Of a stretch of 48,622 nt of DNA, positions 3,252 through 48,412 are shown one piece after another. The number at the start of each line of letters is the position of its first letter. Positions within the stretch are counted from its first letter, which is position 1. A model generated the notes under the pieces. That model made no database searches. It worked only from the letters and a program-made list of their open reading frames with translations, and was not told the DNA's origin. This DNA is from Shigella phage vB_Shig_1KOFFS, in sequence record PV615260; one strand, 5' to 3'. Both the position numbers and the translations under genes were made by a program.

Positions 3252-3734
3252 ATGGGGATTAAAACGCGGGTTACATTCGCGGCGGCGGTGGCGATCGCGG
3301 TCGCGTTCCTCCCCGAAGTGGAGGACACGAAATACAATGTTTATATGGATATCGCTGGCGTCCCGACAGTATGCGAAGGCATCACAGGCCCGGACGTTAT
3401 CAAGGGGAAAACCTATACCCGGTCAGAGTGCGACGCGCTTTTAACCAAGCATATCCAGGTGGCGAAGCGAACCGTTGACAGCAAAATCAAAGTCGATGTT
3501 CCGGATACCTTCAGGGCGTCGATGTACAGCTTCACGTTCAACGTTGGCGGCGGCGCGTATTCTGGCAGCACCATGCTGAAATTAACGAACCAGGGCCGAT
3601 TGCGCGAGGCGTGCGAGCAGCTATATCGCTGGACGTACTACCGCAACCCGAAAACGGGAAAGATGGAGAAGTCGAAAGGCTTGTATAATCGCCGGGTTCA
3701 GGAATATCAACTATGCATTAAGGATCTGAAATGA
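3252..3734 (+). CDS. SAR endolysin (GH24 lysozyme)
   Basis: Hydrophobic N-terminal signal-anchor-release segment ([15 protein letters not shown]) followed by the canonical E-x8-D-x5-T catalytic triad ([16 protein letters not shown]). Confidence 0.8.
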
Positions 3735-4156
3735 GCACATTAAACTTTCAACGAGCGCTGGCCATCGGCTTTATCGTGTGGGCGGCTGCCGTTGTTTCCG
3801 GTTGCGCGTCAAGCGTCCCAATCCTTTCCGATCTGGTTGGTAGCAAGCCGGATATGACGGCGCAAGTAGGCGCGGAGAACGTGAAACAGGCGGTTGGCGT
3901 GACCAACAAAACGGACACGTCGAGCAGGCAGGAGACCACGTTTAAGGAGTCGGCTGTAGGTAAAGTTGACACGTCGAACAAGAAATCCGTAACGACCTCC
4001 AGCATTCACGCCAACCAGATCACGGCGGACAAGATCGAGATCCGTAATGATGAAAGCGGAAGCCTGGTTCCGTGGCTGATTGGTAGCATTGGGGTAGTAA
4101 TGCTGGCTATCGGGGTGTTCGGTATTTGGCGGGAACGAAAAAATAAAGGGGCGTAA
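3731..4156 (+). CDS. Unimolecular spanin (lipoprotein with C-terminal transmembrane domain)
   Basis: Signal peptide with lipobox VVSGC at N-terminus and hydrophobic helix [22 protein letters not shown] at C-terminus, as in T1 gp11. Confidence 0.75.
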
Positions 4157-31304: not shown

Positions 31305-32057
31305 ATGACAGCCAATGTTTCAAAAGAGTTTGCGAACTGCTTACAAAAACTTTTCCCCGGCGAGATCCTAACGCTGATCGATATCGACGCCACAAAGTTC
31401 GGCGGGCAGGTCTACCGATTCCATAACGAGAACGTCGCCTATACAACCGAGGAGCTTTTGGCAGCGGTTAACGGCGGGACGCTTCAGCCAAAGATGATCA
31501 CGTTTCGCGGTGAGCAGTACGGCCCGCGCCCGTTCGGCCTGGGAGGGATCGCAATGTCGAGCGATGGCACAGTGGAAAAGCCAACGCTGACGGTTAGTAA
31601 TATCGATGCGCAGGCGAGTGCTCTTATTCGCGCCTACAATGGCCTCATGCAAGCCAAGGTTACGGTATGGGTTTTGGTCAAGGAATTGCTACAAAACGAC
31701 GGCAGCGTTAAAGAGGGCGATTTTAGGCGATTTGTCTACTACATCGAGCGCCCAAAACAGGTCGACCCGCAAAAGGCAACGTTCGAATTAACATCCGTGT
31801 TTGATATGGATGGATTAATGATCCCGGCACGCCTAACGCAAACCGTTTGTTATTGGGCGCAGCGTGGGTGGTACAAGTCTGGCAAAGGCTGCGACTACAA
31901 CGGGCAGAACGGATACTTCGACAAGTTAGGAAACAGGGTTGACGACCCGGCGCAAGATGTTTGTGGTGGCCTGGTTTCTTCCTGTAGGCTTCGTTTTGGT
32001 AATGAGCCGTTGAGTTTCGGCGGTTGTGCGACAGCAACGTTAAAGAGTGGTAGCTAA
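31305..32057 (+). CDS. Minor tail protein (gpL-like) with C-terminal Cys cluster
   Basis: Position after gpM-like gene; C-terminal cysteines (CYWAQ, GCDYN, CGGLVSSC) resemble the Fe-S ligands of lambda gpL. Confidence 0.65.
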   Translation: MTANVSKEFANCLQKLFPGEILTLIDIDATKFGGQVYRFHNENVAYTTEELLAAVNGGTLQPKMITFRGEQYGPRPFGLGGIAMSSDGTVEKPTLTVSNIDAQASALIRAYNGLMQAKVTVWVLVKELLQNDGSVKEGDFRRFVYYIERPKQVDPQKATFELTSVFDMDGLMIPARLTQTVCYWAQRGWYKSGKGCDYNGQNGYFDKLGNRVDDPAQDVCGGLVSSCRLRFGNEPLSFGGCATATLKSGS

Positions 32058-36400: not shown

Positions 36401-37165
36401 AATTCTGGTATGGCGCTACAGCTTACCGCGAGTGGTGGAGGCGTTGTTTCCCAGGTGCTATTTATTGCTGATAGATTCGCTATCATCCGAAATGCGGAGT
36501 CTGGAGCGTACACGTTGCCGTTTGTTGTGCAGAATGACCAGGTTTTCATGAATAACGCGCTTATTCAGGATGGTTCGATTACCAACGCGAAGATCGGCAA
36601 CTTTATTCAGTCCAACAACTATGTTTCAGGTAGTCGAGGATGGTCAATAGACAAAAACGGGAATGCTGAGTTCAGCGGCGTAACTGTAAGGGGGCACATT
36701 GAGGCTGATAGCGGTTCATTTCATGGCACCATCGACGCAACCGATGGGATATTCCGCGGCTCGGTTGAAGCAAATAGTTTTGTGGGAGATATCGCGGCAA
36801 TGGGGCCATTCCCGACGAGAGTTGGGTCGACATGGAAATCACGAGTCGTGCACCATGATTCAAGTGAAAAAGGAGGGAAAAACTACGCAATTCTCGGACT
36901 AATTCGCTGGGATGCTGGCGACAAGACTGGCTCGGTTATCGTTGAGTGTTATGTTAATGGCGTAAGGGTATCTTCTCAAACGTATAATGGCAGAGATGCA
37001 GGGGAATCAACCCGTGCTCGCCTAACTGCTGTAGGTGTTGCGACGGGAATCAACACGAAGGATACTTTGGTTGAGATTGTCGTAAGTGGGACTGGCACCA
37101 GCTCCCTTGAGGCTGGTTACTGCATTATGTCTCGAGGCTCCGGATCGTGGGAGGTGGTAGCATAA
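33461..37165 (+). CDS. Tail tip / host specificity protein (gpJ-like central fibre)
   Basis: 1234-aa ORF at the end of the tail module, conserved position after K and I homologues; RBS AGGAGG. Confidence 0.85.
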   Translation: MNNIKARKGGSSKPRTPVEMPDNLISKDKIKLLLAVSDGEVVNDFSLKQLHFGGVPVQNEDGTFNYEGVIAEFRPGTQTQDYIQGFSESSAEFQVAREVTRNTPYTLTVSNKNLSAIRFRLLWPRVLTQKDNGDMVGSVVEYKIEMAVDGASYQTYLTGKIDGKNTTGGYDRSIRVNLPQNFTSQVLIRVSRVTPDADGVKVVDAFRVESYAEVIDAKFRYPLTAMLYVEFDSDLFQNQIPTISLKKKWKIIQVPRNYDPINRTYSGTWDGVFKWAWSNNPAWVLYDLIMNQRYGLDQRELGIPVDKWSLYEVAQYCDELVPDNRGGMEPRYLIDVIVQSQVEAFQLVRDICSAFRGMTFYNGESLSIIVDKPRDPVYLFTADNVVDGVFVRTFPSEKTMYTSCNVMFDDEENQYEQDVEPVFNPDAAMRFGHNPTSITAIGCTRRTEANRRGRWILQTNLSATTVSFSTGLEGMIPSCGDVIYVADPHWQSAFNLVLSGRVMEVSGVQVFLAYRCDAKAGDTLILNTDDGKPVRRTIASVSADGKTLTLNVGFNFDVAPDSVFLIESDQLAAEQYVVTRIEKGSDDDEFTFAITATQYDPNKYDAIDNGVITDSRPTSIVDPDSLGAPKDLTISSFSRIVQGMSVETMVIGWSAVQYAKLYEVQWRKDGGNWNNVPRTATTQVDIEGIYAGEYQARVRCISGGNVASPWSALATATLTGKVGAPKGPINLFASDDEIFGIRVKWAMPEGAEDTAYIELYQSQSGTDQDASLLTLIPYPAAEYWHSILPAGYVNFYKARSVDRIGNVSAWTDYARGMSSTDVNAITDTILDEILDSDAMKEIQESAQDSAAKLNEYANSIIQNALANDGDVRIMRKENGKRKAEIKHAEVLIANETEARVQQVNQISAEFNENLNAGLTQVNEALANETEARVTSEEALSARIGQNSAALDQKLDSWADVNGVGSMYTMKLGLRYNGQEYNSGMALQLTASGGGVVSQVLFIADRFAIIRNAESGAYTLPFVVQNDQVFMNNALIQDGSITNAKIGNFIQSNNYVSGSRGWSIDKNGNAEFSGVTVRGHIEADSGSFHGTIDATDGIFRGSVEANSFVGDIAAMGPFPTRVGSTWKSRVVHHDSSEKGGKNYAILGLIRWDAGDKTGSVIVECYVNGVRVSSQTYNGRDAGESTRARLTAVGVATGINTKDTLVEIVVSGTGTSSLEAGYCIMSRGSGSWEVVA

Positions 37166-37492: not shown

Positions 37493-37708
37493 TTATTCGC
37501 TGTAAAGTCCGTTTCCACCTTCGCACATGATGTAATAACCACCAGGTTGTGGGTCATATTTTTGCATATACTCTTCTGTCACAACAATAGGGTCTGAAAT
37601 CTCCTGACCACTTTCCAGAATTAACGTACACTGACCATCTGTGACATCACCTACACTTGCAATTTTTAATGAAAATACTGGTGTAATTTTTTCAACGTTG
37701 CTTTCCAT
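37493..37708 (-). CDS. hypothetical protein (71 aa) downstream of tail fibre
   Basis: Small ORF immediately after the fibre gene on the - strand. Confidence 0.45.
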   Translation of the reverse strand: MESNVEKITPVFSLKIASVGDVTDGQCTLILESGQEISDPIVVTEEYMQKYDPQPGGYYIMCEGGNGLYSE

Positions 37709-43883: not shown

Positions 43884-44282
43884 TCGGACTACGCGGAGCA
43901 TTTCCCGGCGGTCGCATCGGCGCGTAACTGGCTTGCCGTTGCTGTCAAACCTTAAATCTGGTCGGCAGAATGAGGCGCGGAAACCTTTGCAATTGTTCCG
44001 GCGGTAGCTCTTGTGTACGAGATAAGCGCCATCGGCTGAGATCATGCCTCGCTTGCGCCACTGCTGAACGACCTGGATGCTAACCCCCAACTCTTTTGCC
44101 GTTCCAGCGATGCCACCGAAGGCATCAATAACAAGCTCCATCCGCGCAGTCAACCCGGCGCGAACCTCATCCTTCAGTACGTAGTAACCAGTCGGGCGTT
44201 TGCGCTTCTTCTTGTCCTTTCCGCGAGATGTTCCATTGTTGCCGTTCAAAGTTCGCTTGTCTACCTTTGCCATTTGTTCCAT
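43881..44282 (-). CDS. HTH DNA-binding protein (Cro/YdaS-like), candidate transcription regulator
   Basis: Segment GTAKELGVSIQVVQQWRKRGMIS resembles Cro/YdaS-type helix-turn-helix; basic N-terminus. Confidence 0.55.
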   Translation of the reverse strand: MEQMAKVDKRTLNGNNGTSRGKDKKKRKRPTGYYVLKDEVRAGLTARMELVIDAFGGIAGTAKELGVSIQVVQQWRKRGMISADGAYLVHKSYRRNNCKGFRASFCRPDLRFDSNGKPVTRRCDRREMLRVVR

Positions 44283-44295
44283 AATTTAGCCCTCA

Positions 44296-44373
44296 TAGCA
44301 CTTTTTGTTAAACATGATAAAATATGCTATGTATTATACACGCAACCATGCTAATGACAAATTAGGATTGCAC
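44296..44373 (+). promoter_or_regulatory. Conserved promoter-like cassette
   Basis: TAGCACTTTTTGTTAAAC followed about 22 bp later by TATTAT, with an extended -10-like TGATAAAAT nearer the box. Confidence 0.45.
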
Positions 44374-44886
44374 ATGGCAAGCACAGAAGAAGACGTAGCA
44401 TATTTTAAGCGACTATTTCGTTATGAAGGCGGAACACTGATTCGCAAAGTTACAACCAGTAGTCGTGCATTCGCTGGCGACTCCGTAGGGTGCGAGAACA
44501 ACGCTGGGTATTTACAGGTAAGCGTAAAAAGCAAACCCCTATACGTTCACCGAATCATTTGGGAAATGCATAATGGGCCGATCCCAGAAGGAATGGAGAT
44601 AGATCATATCAATCAGGTCAGAACAGATAACAGAATCGAAAACCTGCGACTGGTAAGCCACAAAGGAAACCTTAAAAACCAATCAATGAACAGTGGCAAT
44701 ACTAGCGGGCAATCTGGCGTAAGCTGGTTTAAGCGAGGCGGGAAGTGGAGGGCAACAATAAAGGTTGACAGAAGGCAAATACACATTGGTTACTTCGCGT
44801 CGTTTGATTCGGCAGTTGCCGCACGAAAAGCAGCAGAAAAACAATACGGTTTTCATGATAACCACGGAGCAGAGAAAAAGAAATGA
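44374..44886 (+). CDS. HNH homing endonuclease with AP2-type DNA-binding domain
   Basis: HNH motif EIDHINQVRTDNRIENLRLVSHKGN and C-terminal AP2-like SGVSWFKRGGKWRATIKVDRRQIHIGYF. Confidence 0.75.
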   Translation: MASTEEDVAYFKRLFRYEGGTLIRKVTTSSRAFAGDSVGCENNAGYLQVSVKSKPLYVHRIIWEMHNGPIPEGMEIDHINQVRTDNRIENLRLVSHKGNLKNQSMNSGNTSGQSGVSWFKRGGKWRATIKVDRRQIHIGYFASFDSAVAARKAAEKQYGFHDNHGAEKKK

Positions 44887-46922
44887 GCTTATCGATTGAG
44901 CAACAAATAGATCTATACGCAGACAAAATACCGGCAATCCAAAAGAGATTTACCGTTGGAAATATCGTTCCGTATCCATATCAGGCTGTGGCTTATATTG
45001 AGACCGCCAAAAGAATAGCAAACTACACCGCACCGTTTTACATTAAGGCTTCGGTTTCCGCCGGGAAAACCATCATGATCGCCATGCTCGCGGCGCAGTG
45101 CAAAGCAATGAACTTACCCATGATGGTTCTAGCTCGCCAGGCTGAGATCGTGAAGCAGGATTCCGAGGAGATCAGTAACCTCGATGTTCCCAACTCCGTT
45201 TATTGCGCCGGGTTAGGAACGAAGGCCGCATACTTCCCGATTGTCGTCGGATCTGAAGGGACGGTGGTTAATGGCCTGTTTAAAATGCTGGGCGACTACG
45301 TGCCTTCAGTTCTGGCCATTGATGAATGCCACCAGGTTGACTGGCAAGATTTGGCGGAAGCGATCGCCAACAATGAATCGTTCGAGTACATGAGCCGACC
45401 GAAGGATAAGCCGTATCGCGTGAACGGGGAACTGGTCGATGCCGACCACCCCTACGACGAAAAATTCGACGACGTGGAATTCGGCGGCGGGCGCACTCAA
45501 TACACCATCGTAATCATTGAGTTAATGCGCCGTTGCCTTCAGAAGACTGGGCGCGAGCTTCGCATTGTTGGCTATACGGGTTCGGAGTTTCGCGGAGTCA
45601 TTCCGATCTTACAGGAAGACAAGAGCCAGCCGGGTTTCTGGCGCGAGCAGATCACCGACATTAACACAAACTATCTTGTCGAGTTCGGATCGGTTGTTCC
45701 CACCATTTTCGGCGATACCGAGGCGGATGGGTTGGGGTATGATCTTTCAGAATTCCACGGCTCCAGTCAGGACGGTACGCAGGATTTTAGCGCGGAAGAC
45801 TTGCGCAAGATGGAGAAGAAAATCCATGAATCCGGCGAAATGACGAAGCTGATTATGCAAAAGGTCGTTGAGCGTGCGAAAACCCGAAACGGTGTTCTGA
45901 TAACTTGCGCTGGACAGCGGCATTGCAAGGAGGCGGCGAGCTATCTACCGCCGGACGCAACATACGCGATCATCACCGAGAAGACCAACTCAAAGAAACG
46001 CGGCGAAATTTTGGATAAGGCGAATCGCGGGGAGATTAAATACATCTTCCAGGTGATGGCCCTAACCACTGGCGTTAACGTTCCGTTTTGGGATTTTTCG
46101 GTGATATTGCGCAAGATTGGATCGCTTACGTTGCTTATTCAGCTTTTGGGGCGCGGTATGCGACTTCTGAAGGACTGGCAAAAACAGCCACCTTACTCGT
46201 GGGTGAAAGAAGATCACCTTGTCTGGGATTTTGCCGGAACAATGGATGACCTGGGCCAGTTGTATTTCGATCCGATTTTGGAGCAGGCGCAATACCAAAG
46301 ACGCAAGAGCAGCAAGAACGGCCCGAAAATTTGCCCGGTATGCAAGGGCGAAAATAGCGAGTACGCCCGCCGATGCATTCATAAGGACAGTAACGGCAAT
46401 CGGTGCGAATACTTCTGGATCTCGCAGCGCTGCGAAGACCAGAAAGACCCACGAACAGGGAAGATTAAAGTAAAAGGGTGTTACGCTGAAAACGATATTG
46501 TTGCTCGCCAGTGCAGATGCTGCGGTGTTCAGCTTAAAGACCCAAATGACAATCTCACCGGGAAGCACTATACGCAAAATGACTGGTATGATGTTGTCGG
46601 GTTCGATATCGGCTTGACTCGCAATCAGTCCGGGATAATCTTCAATTACGTGTTACTGAACCATGACGGCGAGCGATTCACCGCAAGGGAAAAGTTCTTC
46701 CCGGAATCAGAGAATCAGATTTGCGGCAAGTTGTGGCGGCAAAAGGCAGTCTTCCAGCACGTTAGCGACGCGGTAATGCGCGGCAAGTTGGGTGGCATGA
46801 AAAACGCCCGCAAGATCCTTGAGTATGCGGAATACTTCCGCGCTCCGAAGCGTGTAACGCATCGCATCAACGGCAAGAAGGAGGACATTATTTCCCGCAA
46901 AGACTTTGGAGGCGAGGAGTGA
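44883..46922 (+). CDS. SF2 DEAD/DEAH-box helicase
   Basis: Walker A VSAGKT and DEAH-type motif DECHQV; C-terminal Cys clusters (CPVCKG, CRCC). Confidence 0.8.
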   Translation: MSLSIEQQIDLYADKIPAIQKRFTVGNIVPYPYQAVAYIETAKRIANYTAPFYIKASVSAGKTIMIAMLAAQCKAMNLPMMVLARQAEIVKQDSEEISNLDVPNSVYCAGLGTKAAYFPIVVGSEGTVVNGLFKMLGDYVPSVLAIDECHQVDWQDLAEAIANNESFEYMSRPKDKPYRVNGELVDADHPYDEKFDDVEFGGGRTQYTIVIIELMRRCLQKTGRELRIVGYTGSEFRGVIPILQEDKSQPGFWREQITDINTNYLVEFGSVVPTIFGDTEADGLGYDLSEFHGSSQDGTQDFSAEDLRKMEKKIHESGEMTKLIMQKVVERAKTRNGVLITCAGQRHCKEAASYLPPDATYAIITEKTNSKKRGEILDKANRGEIKYIFQVMALTTGVNVPFWDFSVILRKIGSLTLLIQLLGRGMRLLKDWQKQPPYSWVKEDHLVWDFAGTMDDLGQLYFDPILEQAQYQRRKSSKNGPKICPVCKGENSEYARRCIHKDSNGNRCEYFWISQRCEDQKDPRTGKIKVKGCYAENDIVARQCRCCGVQLKDPNDNLTGKHYTQNDWYDVVGFDIGLTRNQSGIIFNYVLLNHDGERFTAREKFFPESENQICGKLWRQKAVFQHVSDAVMRGKLGGMKNARKILEYAEYFRAPKRVTHRINGKKEDIISRKDFGGEE

Positions 46923-47326
46923 TTACAGATAAAGGGGATTACCTCGAATATTACGGCGGGCCTGTAAAGGCTTGCCCGCTTGAGAAAATCGACCAGATGA
47001 ACAGCGTTTCGTGGCTGCGGCATGAATATCCTGATTATCTGTTTTGGCATACGGTTAACGAAGGGAGCAAGCACAAAGCGAGCGCGGTTATCGATCATCA
47101 AATGGGGTTGCTGAAGGGTGTTAGCGACATTCTGATCCTGATTGGGTTCGGTGGCAAATACCCGTTCGCAGCCATTGAGCTAAAGCGCCAGGGTAAGGCG
47201 CAGGCGTCGCCAGTGAGCAAGGAGCAAAGGGAATTCCTTGCTGCCGTCCGGCGTCGCGGCGGATTCGCCGCCGTGGCCTATGGCTTCGAGCAATTCAAGA
47301 TCGCTTTCTGCGATGCCATAAAATAG
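46919..47326 (+). CDS. VRR-NUC domain nuclease
   Basis: PD-(D/E)xK-like segments GVSDILIL and AIELK; GTG start after RBS GAGGAG overlapping helicase stop. Confidence 0.55.
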   Translation: MITDKGDYLEYYGGPVKACPLEKIDQMNSVSWLRHEYPDYLFWHTVNEGSKHKASAVIDHQMGLLKGVSDILILIGFGGKYPFAAIELKRQGKAQASPVSKEQREFLAAVRRRGGFAAVAYGFEQFKIAFCDAIK

Positions 47327-47399
47327 CACTTTTTGTTAAAACCGCCCGGCGAAAGCCGGGTATCATTTCCACATCGAAACAAAGAACGGAGTGTTGAAA
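47324..47399 (+). promoter_or_regulatory. Conserved promoter-like cassette
   Basis: TAGCACTTTTTGTTAAAAC, hairpin CCCGGCgaaaGCCGGG, TATCAT, CATCGAAAC, RBS GGAG. Confidence 0.5.
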
Positions 47400-47678
47400 A
47401 TGAAAAAGATGCTGGCTTTAGTTGTTCTGTCTCTTGGTCTTATTGGTTGCAGCGAAAAACCAAAAACATATGATTGCGGTGGTGAAGCGTTCGAGGTAAC
47501 TAGCAACTATATGAAAGTTGTAAAGGGTAAGAACTCTGGCGTTGTAATTGATGGCGCTGGCGAAAATCAATATAAACTGCTTACTCCTTTTGGGTACGCT
47601 CATTATGAAGTAAACAAAAACACTATTGATGTTAGTGTGGGCGCTTTTCATAATACCTTAACCTGCGAGGTTAAATAA
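47400..47678 (+). CDS. Small lipoprotein, candidate superinfection-exclusion protein
   Basis: Signal peptide with lipobox LIGC (MKKMLALVVLSLGLIGCSE); 92 aa. Confidence 0.5.
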   Translation: MKKMLALVVLSLGLIGCSEKPKTYDCGGEAFEVTSNYMKVVKGKNSGVVIDGAGENQYKLLTPFGYAHYEVNKNTIDVSVGAFHNTLTCEVK

Positions 47679-47680
47679 TA

Positions 47681-48412
47681 ATGGCAAAAGATATCACAGA
47701 CAAAGACACTCGTGACGCATTCATCACGTTTGAGCAATTGGAGCGCGAAACGTTTATTGGCAATGCCCTTGCCACTGGCGGACACTATCAGGCTGTCAGG
47801 CCCGACAAGTTTTACCAGGTAACAGGCAACCGATACGCCGGGAGCAAAACGCCTGATATTGTGCGCGATAAGTGGGCGACCGATCGCAGCCTGATCGCAT
47901 ACATGGAAGAGCGTTATGGCCCTTACGACCTCGACGCCGCCGCAGACAGAAGCAACGCAGTTTGCCCGAAGTTCTACGACGAAAAAACGGATTGCCTTAA
48001 ACGCTGGTGGGGTAAAAACAAGCACATCTGGCTAAATCCCCCTTACTCGTTTCCAGATCCGTTTATTCTCAAGGCCATTGAGCAAATGGAGCACGACAAC
48101 CAGATCGACATTCTGCTACCCGGCGACAATTCTACTGCCTGGTTCCGTGACGCGCAGAAAATGGCAGCCGAAATTATCTGGATTGTTGCAGATGTTGAAG
48201 AGGATGATGACGGGAACCAGTTAAGCCGATCCGGTCGCCTCGCATTCATCAATGGATTAAGCGGGAAGCCAGTCGACAACAACAATAAAGGAAGTGTTAT
48301 TTTCATCATGCGCAAGCTCAAGCCGGGAGAGGAGCAAAAGACGCTTTACATTCCGGTAAGCGAGATTTGCCCGTCATTAGCTAAAAAGCGTATGCGCAAA
48401 CGTGGGGTTTAA
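47681..48412 (+). CDS. dam: DNA N6-adenine methyltransferase (phage Dam-like)
   Basis: NPPY catalytic motif (WLNPPYSF). Confidence 0.75.
   Translation: MAKDITDKDTRDAFITFEQLERETFIGNALATGGHYQAVRPDKFYQVTGNRYAGSKTPDIVRDKWATDRSLIAYMEERYGPYDLDAAADRSNAVCPKFYDEKTDCLKRWWGKNKHIWLNPPYSFPDPFILKAIEQMEHDNQIDILLPGDNSTAWFRDAQKMAAEIIWIVADVEEDDDGNQLSRSGRLAFINGLSGKPVDNNNKGSVIFIMRKLKPGEEQKTLYIPVSEICPSLAKKRMRKRGV

What the first reader, a model, noticed from the sequence alone, without database searches (positions are those of the whole stretch)
47400..47678. Small secreted lipoprotein: candidate superinfection-exclusion factor
A 92-aa product with a clear lipobox (LIGC) and no obvious enzymatic motif is expressed from its own cassette promoter. 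T1- and T5-type phages are known to encode small lipoproteins that block their own outer-membrane receptor; this ORF has the right size and architecture.
Basis: inference. Interest (0 to 1): 0.45.

Follow-up and report, generated by a model that had tools for sequence, protein, structure and literature searches.

The report
Conserved phage lipoprotein in accessory slot
The 92-residue lipoprotein gene is real and conserved in hundreds of T1-like phages, sitting in a swap-prone slot that in sister phages holds a proven superinfection-exclusion lipoprotein, but it belongs to no known exclusion family and does not track the phage's own receptor, so its target is unknown.

Summary
The ORF at 47400-47678 is real: 92 aa, signal peptide, lipobox LIGC (Cys17), two invariant further cysteines, dN/dS about 0.2. 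The window is a near-complete Klebsiella Webervirus (T1-like). The gene sits between the VRR-NUC nuclease and Dam methylase genes. No sigma-70 promoter match lies upstream; a conserved hairpin does, and its last codons carry dam's ribosome-binding site.

It is an uncharacterised family (phrog_7420) in at least 272 phage genomes, always in this slot. The AF2 model is an eight-stranded beta-barrel. It is not Cor, Llp, Rtp45 or MliC: the Cor hit disappears once the signal peptide is removed, and profile comparisons are non-significant.

The slot is hypervariable and holds almost only envelope proteins. In some near-identical weberviruses it holds a homologue of Rtp45, the structurally proven LptD-blocking exclusion lipoprotein. 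That supports an exclusion-type role by position.

The protein does not follow the phage's receptor. It is 88% identical in a TolC phage (Bas08) and a YncD phage (Bas10), and is present in OmpC-dependent GH-K3. It also coexists with receptor-locus lipoproteins or secreted proteins.

Verdict: an envelope-acting accessory lipoprotein, probably an exclusion or protection factor with a receptor-independent target. The "blocks its own receptor" reading is unlikely.

The parts
47400..47678 (+). Coding sequence of the 92-aa lipoprotein (family phrog_7420), stop codon included
   Evidence: ORF list and sequence. phrog_7420 E 9.9e-51. 272 phage records hold it. dN/dS about 0.2.
47400..47450 (+). Lipoprotein signal peptide, residues 1-17. 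Lipobox LIGC is at 47439-47450 and Cys17 is the predicted lipid-attachment site.
   Evidence: Read from the sequence. G16 and C17 are invariant in 22 diverse members. The lipobox variants across the family all fit the consensus. The residue after the Cys is not Asp in 68 of 73 distinct sequences, which predicts outer-membrane sorting.
47451..47675 (+). Mature periplasmic domain, predicted eight-stranded beta-barrel. Invariant Cys26 (47475-47477) and Cys89 (47664-47666) probably form a disulfide linking the first and last strands.
   Evidence: AF2 model: pLDDT about 95 over residues 21-92, eight strands. Invariant Y24, C26, G27, Y58, C89. The disulfide is inferred.
47388..47391 (+). Shine-Dalgarno GGAG, 8 nt before the ATG
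   Evidence: Read from the sequence. Conserved in front of every slot occupant, and in T1 in front of dam itself.
47344..47361 (+). Conserved hairpin (7-bp stem, GAAA loop) between VRR-NUC and the slot gene. Likely a leaky terminator or RNA-processing element, not a promoter.
   Evidence: Fold -22 kcal/mol, z -3.3. The same position is annotated as a rho-independent terminator in T1. Stem sequences differ between genera while pairing is kept.
47667..47670 (+). GAGG inside codons E90-V91 that serves as Shine-Dalgarno for dam (ATG 47681), giving translational coupling
   Evidence: Read from the sequence. The same arrangement occurs in distant family members and in other slot occupants.
46919..47326 (+). 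VRR-NUC nuclease gene, left border of the variable slot (context)
   Evidence: Pfam VRR_NUC E 4.6e-10. Homologue of T1 gp21.
47681..48412 (+). Dam methyltransferase gene, right border of the variable slot (context)
   Evidence: Pfam Dam E 4.7e-55. Homologue of T1 gp20.
36761..37165 (+). Distal domain of the central tail fibre gpJ (context). This is the phage's probable receptor-binding part, 97% identical to that of OmpC-dependent phage GH-K3. No separate receptor-binding locus or lipoprotein follows it.
   Evidence: tblastn. GH-K3 requires OmpC (Cai 2018, as cited in PMC6546894). No lipoprotein lies within 3.5 kb downstream of gpJ.

Best explanation
The gene encodes a small accessory lipoprotein. 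It is made from the replication-gene operon (helicase, VRR-NUC, this gene, dam). It is exported by Sec, lipidated at Cys17, and sent by Lol to the inner leaflet of the outer membrane. There a disulfide-stapled eight-stranded beta-barrel sits on a tether of about 5 residues.

It has no catalytic motif. Its fold class is that of periplasmic protein-binding inhibitors. I propose it binds a conserved envelope component of the infected enterobacterial cell. This would close the cell to further attack, either by a superinfecting phage at or after adsorption or by other periplasm-acting agents.

The target is NOT the phage's own terminal receptor.

Shown: the gene is real, conserved, under purifying but relaxed selection, carries lipoprotein signals, and has a beta-barrel model. 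The slot is a hotspot for envelope proteins, including a proven exclusion lipoprotein family. The protein is independent of receptor type.

Inferred: localisation, the disulfide, expression timing, and the exclusion or protection function and its target.
For: (1) Lipoprotein features are invariant across the family.

(3) The VRR-NUC|Dam slot is empty in T1-likes. In the sampled loci its occupants were almost all lipoproteins, secreted proteins or small membrane proteins; two occupants (L052, L082) had no export signal.

(4) In weberviruses L019, L035 and L074, and in L070, the slot holds an Rtp45 homologue (phrog_4281; 9RPS chain D E 5.5e-24). The matching LptD-type receptor-binding gene lies beside gpJ, about 10 kb away. 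So this slot does house exclusion genes. Rtp45 is a structurally proven exclusion lipoprotein (PMC12685063).

(5) No webervirus has any lipoprotein near gpJ.

(6) Non-synonymous change is about 5 times faster than in the flanking genes (dN/dS 0.22 against 0.04). Discrete allele classes at about 75% identity sit in backbones that are 95% or more identical. This is typical of host-interaction genes.

(7) The operon position, shared ribosome-binding site logic and coupling to dam suggest expression with the replication genes.
Against: There is no functional data for any family member (paper searches). Positional replacement shows only that the slot accepts envelope genes, not that they share a function.

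The family does not follow receptor type. It is 88% identical between Bas08 (TolC) and Bas10 (YncD). It is present in OmpC-dependent GH-K3. One allele class accompanies at least four different gpJ ends.

It coexists with a receptor-locus Rtp45-like lipoprotein in 50EP and with a receptor-locus secreted protein in Bas10.

One subclade carries Cys-Asp-Asn, which predicts inner-membrane retention. T1-like phages manage without it, and one contig carries it broken in two.
Confidence: 0.4

Rival explanations
1. Strict first-reader model. An Llp/Cor/Rtp45-style lipoprotein binds the periplasmic face of the phage's own terminal receptor and allosterically or sterically prevents binding by the same phage type.
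For: The size, lipobox, disulfide and lytic T1-like context are right. It is the positional alternate of the Rtp45-like gene. In the sampled loci it was present in nearly all phages whose gpJ carries a distal receptor domain and which lack a separate receptor-binding locus: 22 of 22 weberviruses, and 20 of 22.
Against: It is 88% identical in a TolC phage and a YncD phage, while their gpJ proteins are 67% identical. It is also in an OmpC phage. It coexists with receptor-locus accessory proteins. The same gpJ distal type (C) goes with family members only 31% identical. There is no homology to Cor, Llp or Rtp45.
Confidence: 0.08
2. An MliC/PliC-like or immunity-like inhibitor of a periplasm-acting peptidoglycan hydrolase. 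Candidates are host-environment lysozyme, leaked SAR endolysin (lysis timing), or another agent's muramidase. The effect would be to protect the sacculus rather than block entry.
Against: There is no Pfam MliC hit in any of 22 members, even at E 10. Mature-domain hhalign gives P 0.26. I saw no counterpart of the MliC loop SASGARY, which is invariant in the MliC alignment A3. The fold scores are only at generic small-barrel level: avidins and lipocalins score the same.
Confidence: 0.2
3. An envelope-remodelling or other accessory role unrelated to exclusion or hydrolase inhibition. Examples: stabilising the outer membrane or reducing vesiculation during infection, or countering an envelope-based host defence.
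For: The slot holds a miscellany of envelope proteins with no common family. The gene is dispensable in many relatives. It is receptor-independent.
Against: Nothing specific points to it. No PADLOC or NCBIfam match.
Confidence: 0.2
4. Not a functional gene, only a chance ORF with a lipobox-like string.
For: None beyond its small size. One metagenomic contig has it split into two ORFs.
Against: It is intact, of constant length and syntenic in 272 records across five or more genera. dN/dS is 0.2. The structure prediction is confident.
Confidence: 0.01

Closest known systems
Rtp45 / phrog_4281 exclusion lipoproteins of LptD-targeting small siphophages (PDB 9RPS; PMC12685063)
   Same: A small outer-membrane lipoprotein of a T1-like phage with an internal disulfide. 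In weberviruses an Rtp45 homologue occupies exactly the same VRR-NUC|Dam slot as this gene.
   Different: No sequence similarity: the family profile finds nothing significant among PDB chain sequences, and 9RPS is not among the weak matches. The predicted fold differs: a 75-residue closed barrel, against about 6 kDa with a long hairpin for Rtp45. Rtp45-like genes strictly accompany LptD-type receptor-binding genes. This family is receptor-independent.
Cor (phrog_1119) of T1, phi80, N15 and HK022, the FhuA-blocking exclusion lipoprotein
   Same: A lipoprotein of similar size, with one Cys shortly after the lipid Cys and another three residues from the C-terminus. The phage family is the same.
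   Different: The mature domains are unrelated. Cor lies in the receptor-binding locus beside gpJ on the opposite strand, and in my sample was found only with T1 gp32/gp31-type (FhuA-type) loci (PMC13164509). T1-like phages that carry Cor have this slot empty.
Llp of phage T5 (FhuA-Llp complex, PDB 8A60; PMC9586334)
   Same: A small, early-expressed periplasmic lipoprotein of a lytic siphophage (established knowledge).
MliC/PliC family (PF09864) lysozyme-inhibitor lipoproteins
   Same: An outer-membrane lipoprotein with an eight-stranded beta-barrel and a disulfide joining the first and last strands. It is the best characterised structural neighbour.
   Different: No sequence or profile similarity outside the signal peptide and Y-x-C. 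The inhibitory loop motifs are absent. The tether is much shorter.
T4 Spackle (Sp), a periplasmic exclusion protein that inhibits the incoming phage's tail lysozyme
   Same: A conceptual analogue for receptor-independent, post-adsorption exclusion carried out in the periplasm (own knowledge).
   Different: No similarity was tested or expected. Sp is a soluble helical protein, not a lipoprotein.

Membership tests
Bacterial lipoproteins (signal peptidase II substrates) | Positive n-region, hydrophobic core, and lipobox [LVI][ASTVI][GAS]C with the Cys at about position 15-25 | tested here: met
   MKK / MLALVVLSLG / LIGC, Cys17. G16 and C17 invariant. Lipobox variants LIGC, LVGC, LTGC, IVGC and others in 73 distinct sequences. 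Pfam LPAM_1 is hit by 9 of 22 members.
Bacterial lipoproteins (signal peptidase II substrates) | Actual lipidation, cleavage and outer-membrane localisation | not testable with these tools
   Outer-membrane sorting is predicted from a non-Asp residue after the Cys (Ser here; 68 of 73 sequences). One subclade has Cys-Asp-Asn, which predicts inner-membrane retention.
Cor exclusion proteins (phrog_1119) | Sequence homology of the mature domain | tested here: not met
   The full-length hit (E 2.9e-5) disappears when residues 1-17 are removed (E > 1). The T1 Cor mature domain scores 3e-19 as a control. hhalign of mature domains gives P 0.33.
Cor exclusion proteins (phrog_1119) | Encoded in the receptor-binding locus downstream of gpJ, with FhuA-type receptor-binding genes | tested here: not met
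   The gene is 10 kb from gpJ. No lipoprotein lies downstream of gpJ in the window. The window has no T1 gp31/gp32 homologues.
T5 Llp | Llp-like fold, and a gene adjacent to the receptor-binding gene | tested here: not met
Rtp45-like exclusion lipoproteins (phrog_4281) | Sequence homology to Rtp45 (9RPS chain D) | tested here: not met
   The family profile against PDB sequences finds no 9RPS hit. The slot alternative from L019 hits it at 5.5e-24.
Rtp45-like exclusion lipoproteins (phrog_4281) | Strict co-occurrence with the cognate (LptD-type) receptor-binding gene | tested here: not met
   This family occurs with OmpC-, TolC-, YncD-, FhuA-type and LptD-type recognition modules.
MliC/PliC lysozyme inhibitors (PF09864) | Pfam or profile match, including the conserved inhibitory loop motifs | tested here: not met
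   No PF09864 hit in 22 members at E up to 10. hhalign aligns only the signal peptide and Y-x-C. Mature domains give P 0.26.
MliC/PliC lysozyme inhibitors (PF09864) | Eight-stranded beta-barrel lipoprotein fold | tested here: inconclusive
Superinfection-exclusion factors (functional class) | Expression alone reduces adsorption or DNA entry of a phage | not testable with these tools
   Only indirect support exists: positional replacement by an Rtp45 homologue.

The most novel reading that the evidence does not exclude
The family is a receptor-independent exclusion system of T1-like phages. An outer-membrane-tethered beta-barrel would block a lineage-specific post-adsorption step shared by phages that use different receptors (OmpC, TolC, YncD, LptD). 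One candidate step is the periplasmic or inner-membrane factors that recent screens show some siphophage subgroups need (DcrB, SdaC, MetQ; bioRxiv 10.64898/2026.04.02.716166). Another is the incoming tail tip or tape-measure protein. It would act alongside receptor-specific exclusion proteins where those exist.
Probability: 0.2. Interest if true: 0.7.

Novelty: new variant of a known kind. Interest (0 to 1): 0.5.

Why it matters
Weberviruses are among the most frequently isolated Klebsiella phages and are candidates for therapy cocktails. A gene that shuts the infected cell to other phages would affect how cocktail members interfere with each other.

The analysis also shows that exclusion genes in T1-like phages need not sit beside the receptor-binding gene. 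An Rtp45 homologue lies 10 kb away in this slot. Genome-based receptor and exclusion predictions that look only downstream of gpJ will therefore miss them.

If this family acts independently of the receptor, it would point to a shared, still unknown vulnerable step in siphophage entry.

Tried and rejected
(1) Cor membership. The PHROG hit looked promising and 18 of 22 members show it. It is a signal-peptide artefact.

(2) MliC membership. I built an MliC profile from E. coli mliC relatives. hhalign matches only the signal peptide and Y-x-C.

(3) A 3231-aa hit in the representative search is a LapA repeat adhesin. I judged it repeat-driven similarity and dropped it.

(4) 'TolC-specific exclusion factor'. 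This was suggested because Tlsviruses have the gene and lack a receptor-binding locus (PMC8594841). It was rejected because the window's gpJ distal domain is unrelated to the Tlsvirus one and matches OmpC-dependent GH-K3. Bas10 (YncD) also has an 88% identical copy.

(5) 'Cognate to gpJ distal-extension architecture'. There is a strong association in two samples, but exceptions exist: Sweeny/L020, 50EP/L006/L136, Bas10, L111, L135. Shared ancestry is not excluded.

(6) Own promoter. No sigma-70 match was found. The conserved TTGTTA and TATCAT boxes are 22 nt apart.

(7) The afdb50 fold library was unavailable. The BFVD search returned only family members.

(8) The weak HMM hits that seemed to put the family in Cor-carrying phages were signal-peptide matches to Cor or Rtp45-like genes.

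Full report
WHAT IS THERE

The window is an almost complete genome of a Klebsiella Webervirus (Drexlerviridae, T1-like). The last 1.7 kb are 97% identical to phage KLPN1 and match 394 phage records. The ORF named in the finding exists exactly as described: ATG 47400 to stop 47676-47678, 92 aa, MKKMLALVVLSLGLIGCSEKPK....

It has a textbook lipoprotein signal: MKK, a hydrophobic core, and lipobox L-I-G-C with Cys17. A GGAG ribosome-binding site lies 8 nt upstream. A strict lipoprotein pattern over all six frames picked up this ORF (three in-frame starts) and one other hit at 31606-31791, which I took to be chance and did not check. The u-spanin at 3731-4156 is the only other lipoprotein I identified; that pattern missed it. 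No Pfam, NCBIfam or PADLOC family matches. GenBank records call it 'hypothetical protein'.

IS IT A REAL GENE?

Yes.
- tblastn finds it intact in 272 phage records.
- A search of 5.8 billion proteins finds 33 clusters. Most are about 92 aa, and many sit on contigs of about 50 kb.
- A profile search of 1.8 billion representatives adds only a handful of similar 88-96-aa lipoproteins.
- Across members down to 32% identity, the invariant residues are M1, K2, G16, C17, Y24, C26, G27, Y58 and C89.
- Among 27 weberviruses dN/dS is 0.22. That is purifying selection, but about five times more relaxed than in the neighbouring VRR-NUC (0.04) and Dam (0.04) genes. Mean protein identity is 84%, against 95-96% for the neighbours.
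- Three allele classes about 75% identical to each other sit in backbones that are 95% or more identical.

STRUCTURE

AlphaFold2 with the family alignment gives a confident model: pLDDT about 95 for residues 21-92, pTM 0.71. It has eight beta-strands.

Cys26 lies just after the first strand and Cys89 just after the last. A disulfide stapling the barrel is likely (inference). The residue after the lipid Cys is Ser, and is non-Asp in 68 of 73 distinct sequences. This predicts outer-membrane sorting. One subclade has Cys-Asp-Asn, an inner-membrane retention signal.

MEMBERSHIP TESTS

PHROGs gave a tempting second hit to 'Cor superinfection exclusion protein' (E 2.9e-5), seen in 18 of 22 members. 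With the signal peptide removed the hit vanishes (E > 1). The mature T1 Cor control still scores 3e-19.

Profile-profile comparison of mature domains gives P = 0.33 against Cor and P = 0.26 against MliC. The full-length comparison with an MliC profile aligns only the signal peptide and the Y-x-C motif. The family profile finds nothing significant among all PDB sequences, including Rtp45 (9RPS) and Llp.

It is therefore a separate family (phrog_7420, 'unknown function'). It is not a Cor, Llp, Rtp45 or MliC member.

EXPRESSION

No sigma-70-like site lies between VRR-NUC and the ATG. The promoter-like sites on this strand lie upstream of the helicase at 44257-44574.

The 73-bp spacer holds a hairpin (47344-47361; -22 kcal/mol, z -3.3). 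It is conserved in position in T1, where it is annotated as a terminator. It is also conserved in Tlsviruses and others, with different stem sequences that keep pairing.

In T1 the same spacer and ribosome-binding site lead straight into dam. In the window the lipoprotein gene has been inserted between that site and dam. Its final codons (GAG GTT) provide dam's new Shine-Dalgarno sequence. The gene is thus embedded in, and translationally coupled within, the helicase / VRR-NUC / dam operon.

THE SLOT

I fetched 79 related loci through the helicase and 80 through the primase; the two sets overlap. The interval between VRR-NUC and dam is a hotspot.
- In T1-like phages it is empty (74 bp).
- Elsewhere it holds this family, or a 34-aa transmembrane peptide, or various secreted, lipo- or membrane proteins. 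Two occupants (L052, L082) show no export signal.
- Within weberviruses whose helicases are 92-99% identical to the window's, the family is replaced by the transmembrane peptide in L013, L014, L017, L025 and L033.
- In L019, L035 and L074 it is replaced by a different 75-aa lipoprotein.

That second lipoprotein belongs to phrog_4281. It is 59% identical to Rtp45 of phage Rtp and hits PDB 9RPS chain D at E 5.5e-24. Rtp45 is a structurally characterised exclusion lipoprotein. It binds LptDE at the periplasmic face and prevents binding of the receptor-binding protein (PMC12685063).

The weberviruses that carry it in the slot have an LptD-type receptor-binding gene next to gpJ, about 10 kb away, and no lipoprotein there. 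In other genera the same lipoprotein sits in the receptor-binding locus itself (50EP, L051, L054, L056, L062).

So in weberviruses this slot is where a bona fide exclusion lipoprotein lives, unlinked from its receptor-binding partner.

DOES THE FAMILY TRACK THE RECEPTOR?

No.

The window has no receptor-binding locus after gpJ. Its gpJ distal 134 residues are 97% identical to those of GH-K3. GH-K3 requires OmpC (Cai 2018, cited in PMC6546894) and carries the same lipoprotein allele class as gp24.

The family is also present in the following phages.
- TLS and DanielBernoulli/Bas08, which use TolC through a different gpJ distal domain: 66-68% identity (PMC8594841).
- IsaakIselin/Bas10, which uses YncD through a separate receptor-binding locus that includes a secreted accessory protein: 65% identity (PMC8594841).
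- Sweeny, with a T1 gp32/gp31-type locus.
- 50EP and ESCO41, with an LptD-type locus plus its own Rtp45-like lipoprotein: 40% identity.

Bas08 and Bas10 have copies that are 88% identical and 98% similar, while their gpJ proteins are only 67% identical. Within weberviruses one allele class accompanies gpJ end types A, B and C and the FhuA type. Conversely, gpJ type C occurs with family members only 31% identical.

A protein this conserved cannot be binding OmpC in one phage, TolC in another and YncD in a third. The strict 'blocks its own receptor' model is therefore unlikely.

There is a statistical association with phages whose gpJ carries a distal extension: 22 of 22 weberviruses, and 20 of 22 after removing signal-peptide artefacts. 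The exceptions above, and shared ancestry, limit what can be read into it.

MOST LIKELY MECHANISM

- Shown: it is a real, conserved, exported-looking lipoprotein with a small beta-barrel and no enzymatic signature. It is encoded in an operon with replication genes, in a slot specialised for envelope-acting accessory genes that includes a proven exclusion family. It is faster-evolving than its neighbours and dispensable in some relatives.
- Inferred: it is tethered to the inner face of the outer membrane. It acts as a binder or blocker of a conserved envelope component, protecting the infected cell from secondary attack. Its target is independent of the phage's terminal receptor.

I put this at about 0.4. 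The rivals:
- An MliC-like inhibitor of a peptidoglycan hydrolase: 0.2.
- Another envelope role: 0.2.
- The strict own-receptor blocker: 0.08.
- A non-gene: 0.01.

No paper in the library discusses this gene.

NOVELTY AND VALUE

The family is unannotated and uncharacterised, yet widespread in phages used against Klebsiella, E. coli, Salmonella, Citrobacter and Enterobacter.

If it is an exclusion factor, it is a new structural family of a known kind, with the unusual property of being receptor-independent. If it is not, it is still a conserved envelope effector of unknown role.

The by-product is directly useful for genome-based prediction: Rtp45-type exclusion genes can sit 10 kb from their receptor-binding partner, in the VRR-NUC|dam slot.

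Noticed in passing
window 47344-47361 (and the equivalent sites in L003, L004, L005, L006, L070): A hairpin between VRR-NUC and the slot is conserved in position across Drexlerviridae genera. Stem sequences differ but pairing is kept. It is flanked by conserved TTGTTAAAAC and TATCAT-like boxes 22 nt apart. T1 annotates it as a terminator. Its real role (leaky terminator, processing site, or unusual promoter) is open.
   Followed up: partly
L019:12511-12735, L035:12526-12750, L074:12517-12741, L070:12525-12749: An Rtp45-type exclusion lipoprotein (E 5.5e-24 to PDB 9RPS chain D) is encoded in the VRR-NUC|dam slot. The LptD-type receptor-binding gene sits beside gpJ about 10 kb away. Exclusion gene and receptor-binding gene are therefore unlinked in these weberviruses (TAH8, FZ10, Domnhall and F20 type; 53 Klebsiella phage records hold the protein).
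   Followed up: yes
L013:3953-4054, L014, L017, L025, L033 (slot); a 50%-identical copy in L049: A 34-aa single-pass membrane peptide (MKNFLWVIASIGFGIVATGFGLWVITLAGHFKGF) is a third alternative occupant of the slot. It is seen with FhuA-type, YncD-type and other gpJ ends. It matches no PHROG.
   Followed up: partly
window 36761-37165: The distal 134 residues of gpJ occur only in Klebsiella phages (49 records) and are 97% identical to GH-K3, which needs OmpC. The window phage therefore probably uses OmpK36 as its terminal receptor. No receptor-binding locus follows gpJ.
   Followed up: partly
window 47667-47670 / 47681: Codons E90-V91 of the lipoprotein contain dam's Shine-Dalgarno sequence. 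The near-invariant C-E-V-K ending may be partly constrained by this dual use.
   Followed up: partly
L043-L045, L047 (slot); P0038, P0042: A subclade of the family has Cys-Asp-Asn after the lipobox, a strong inner-membrane retention signal. These phages have gpJ type C.
   Followed up: no
L012:12470-12790 (same contig as L096): In one metagenomic webervirus contig the lipoprotein gene is split into two ORFs (45 and 55 aa). This is either a sequencing error or a natural knockout.
   Followed up: no
L168:4367-4699 (-), phage IsaakIselin bas10_0024: The YncD-type receptor-binding locus ends with a 110-aa protein that has a signal-peptidase-I type signal (MKKIMLAMALVAPLNAMA). It is a candidate soluble periplasmic exclusion factor for YncD. 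K50PH164C1 has a comparable 88-aa secreted protein after gpJ (L005:4551-4817).
   Followed up: no
L016:12435-13122: In one webervirus contig the interval to the main dam match is 687 bp, and a 113-aa ORF carries the Dam N-terminus. dam appears interrupted or frameshifted there.
   Followed up: no
window 37493-37708 (-): A 71-aa ORF lies immediately downstream of the 762-aa tail-spike gene. It has no signal peptide and I did not characterise it.
   Followed up: no
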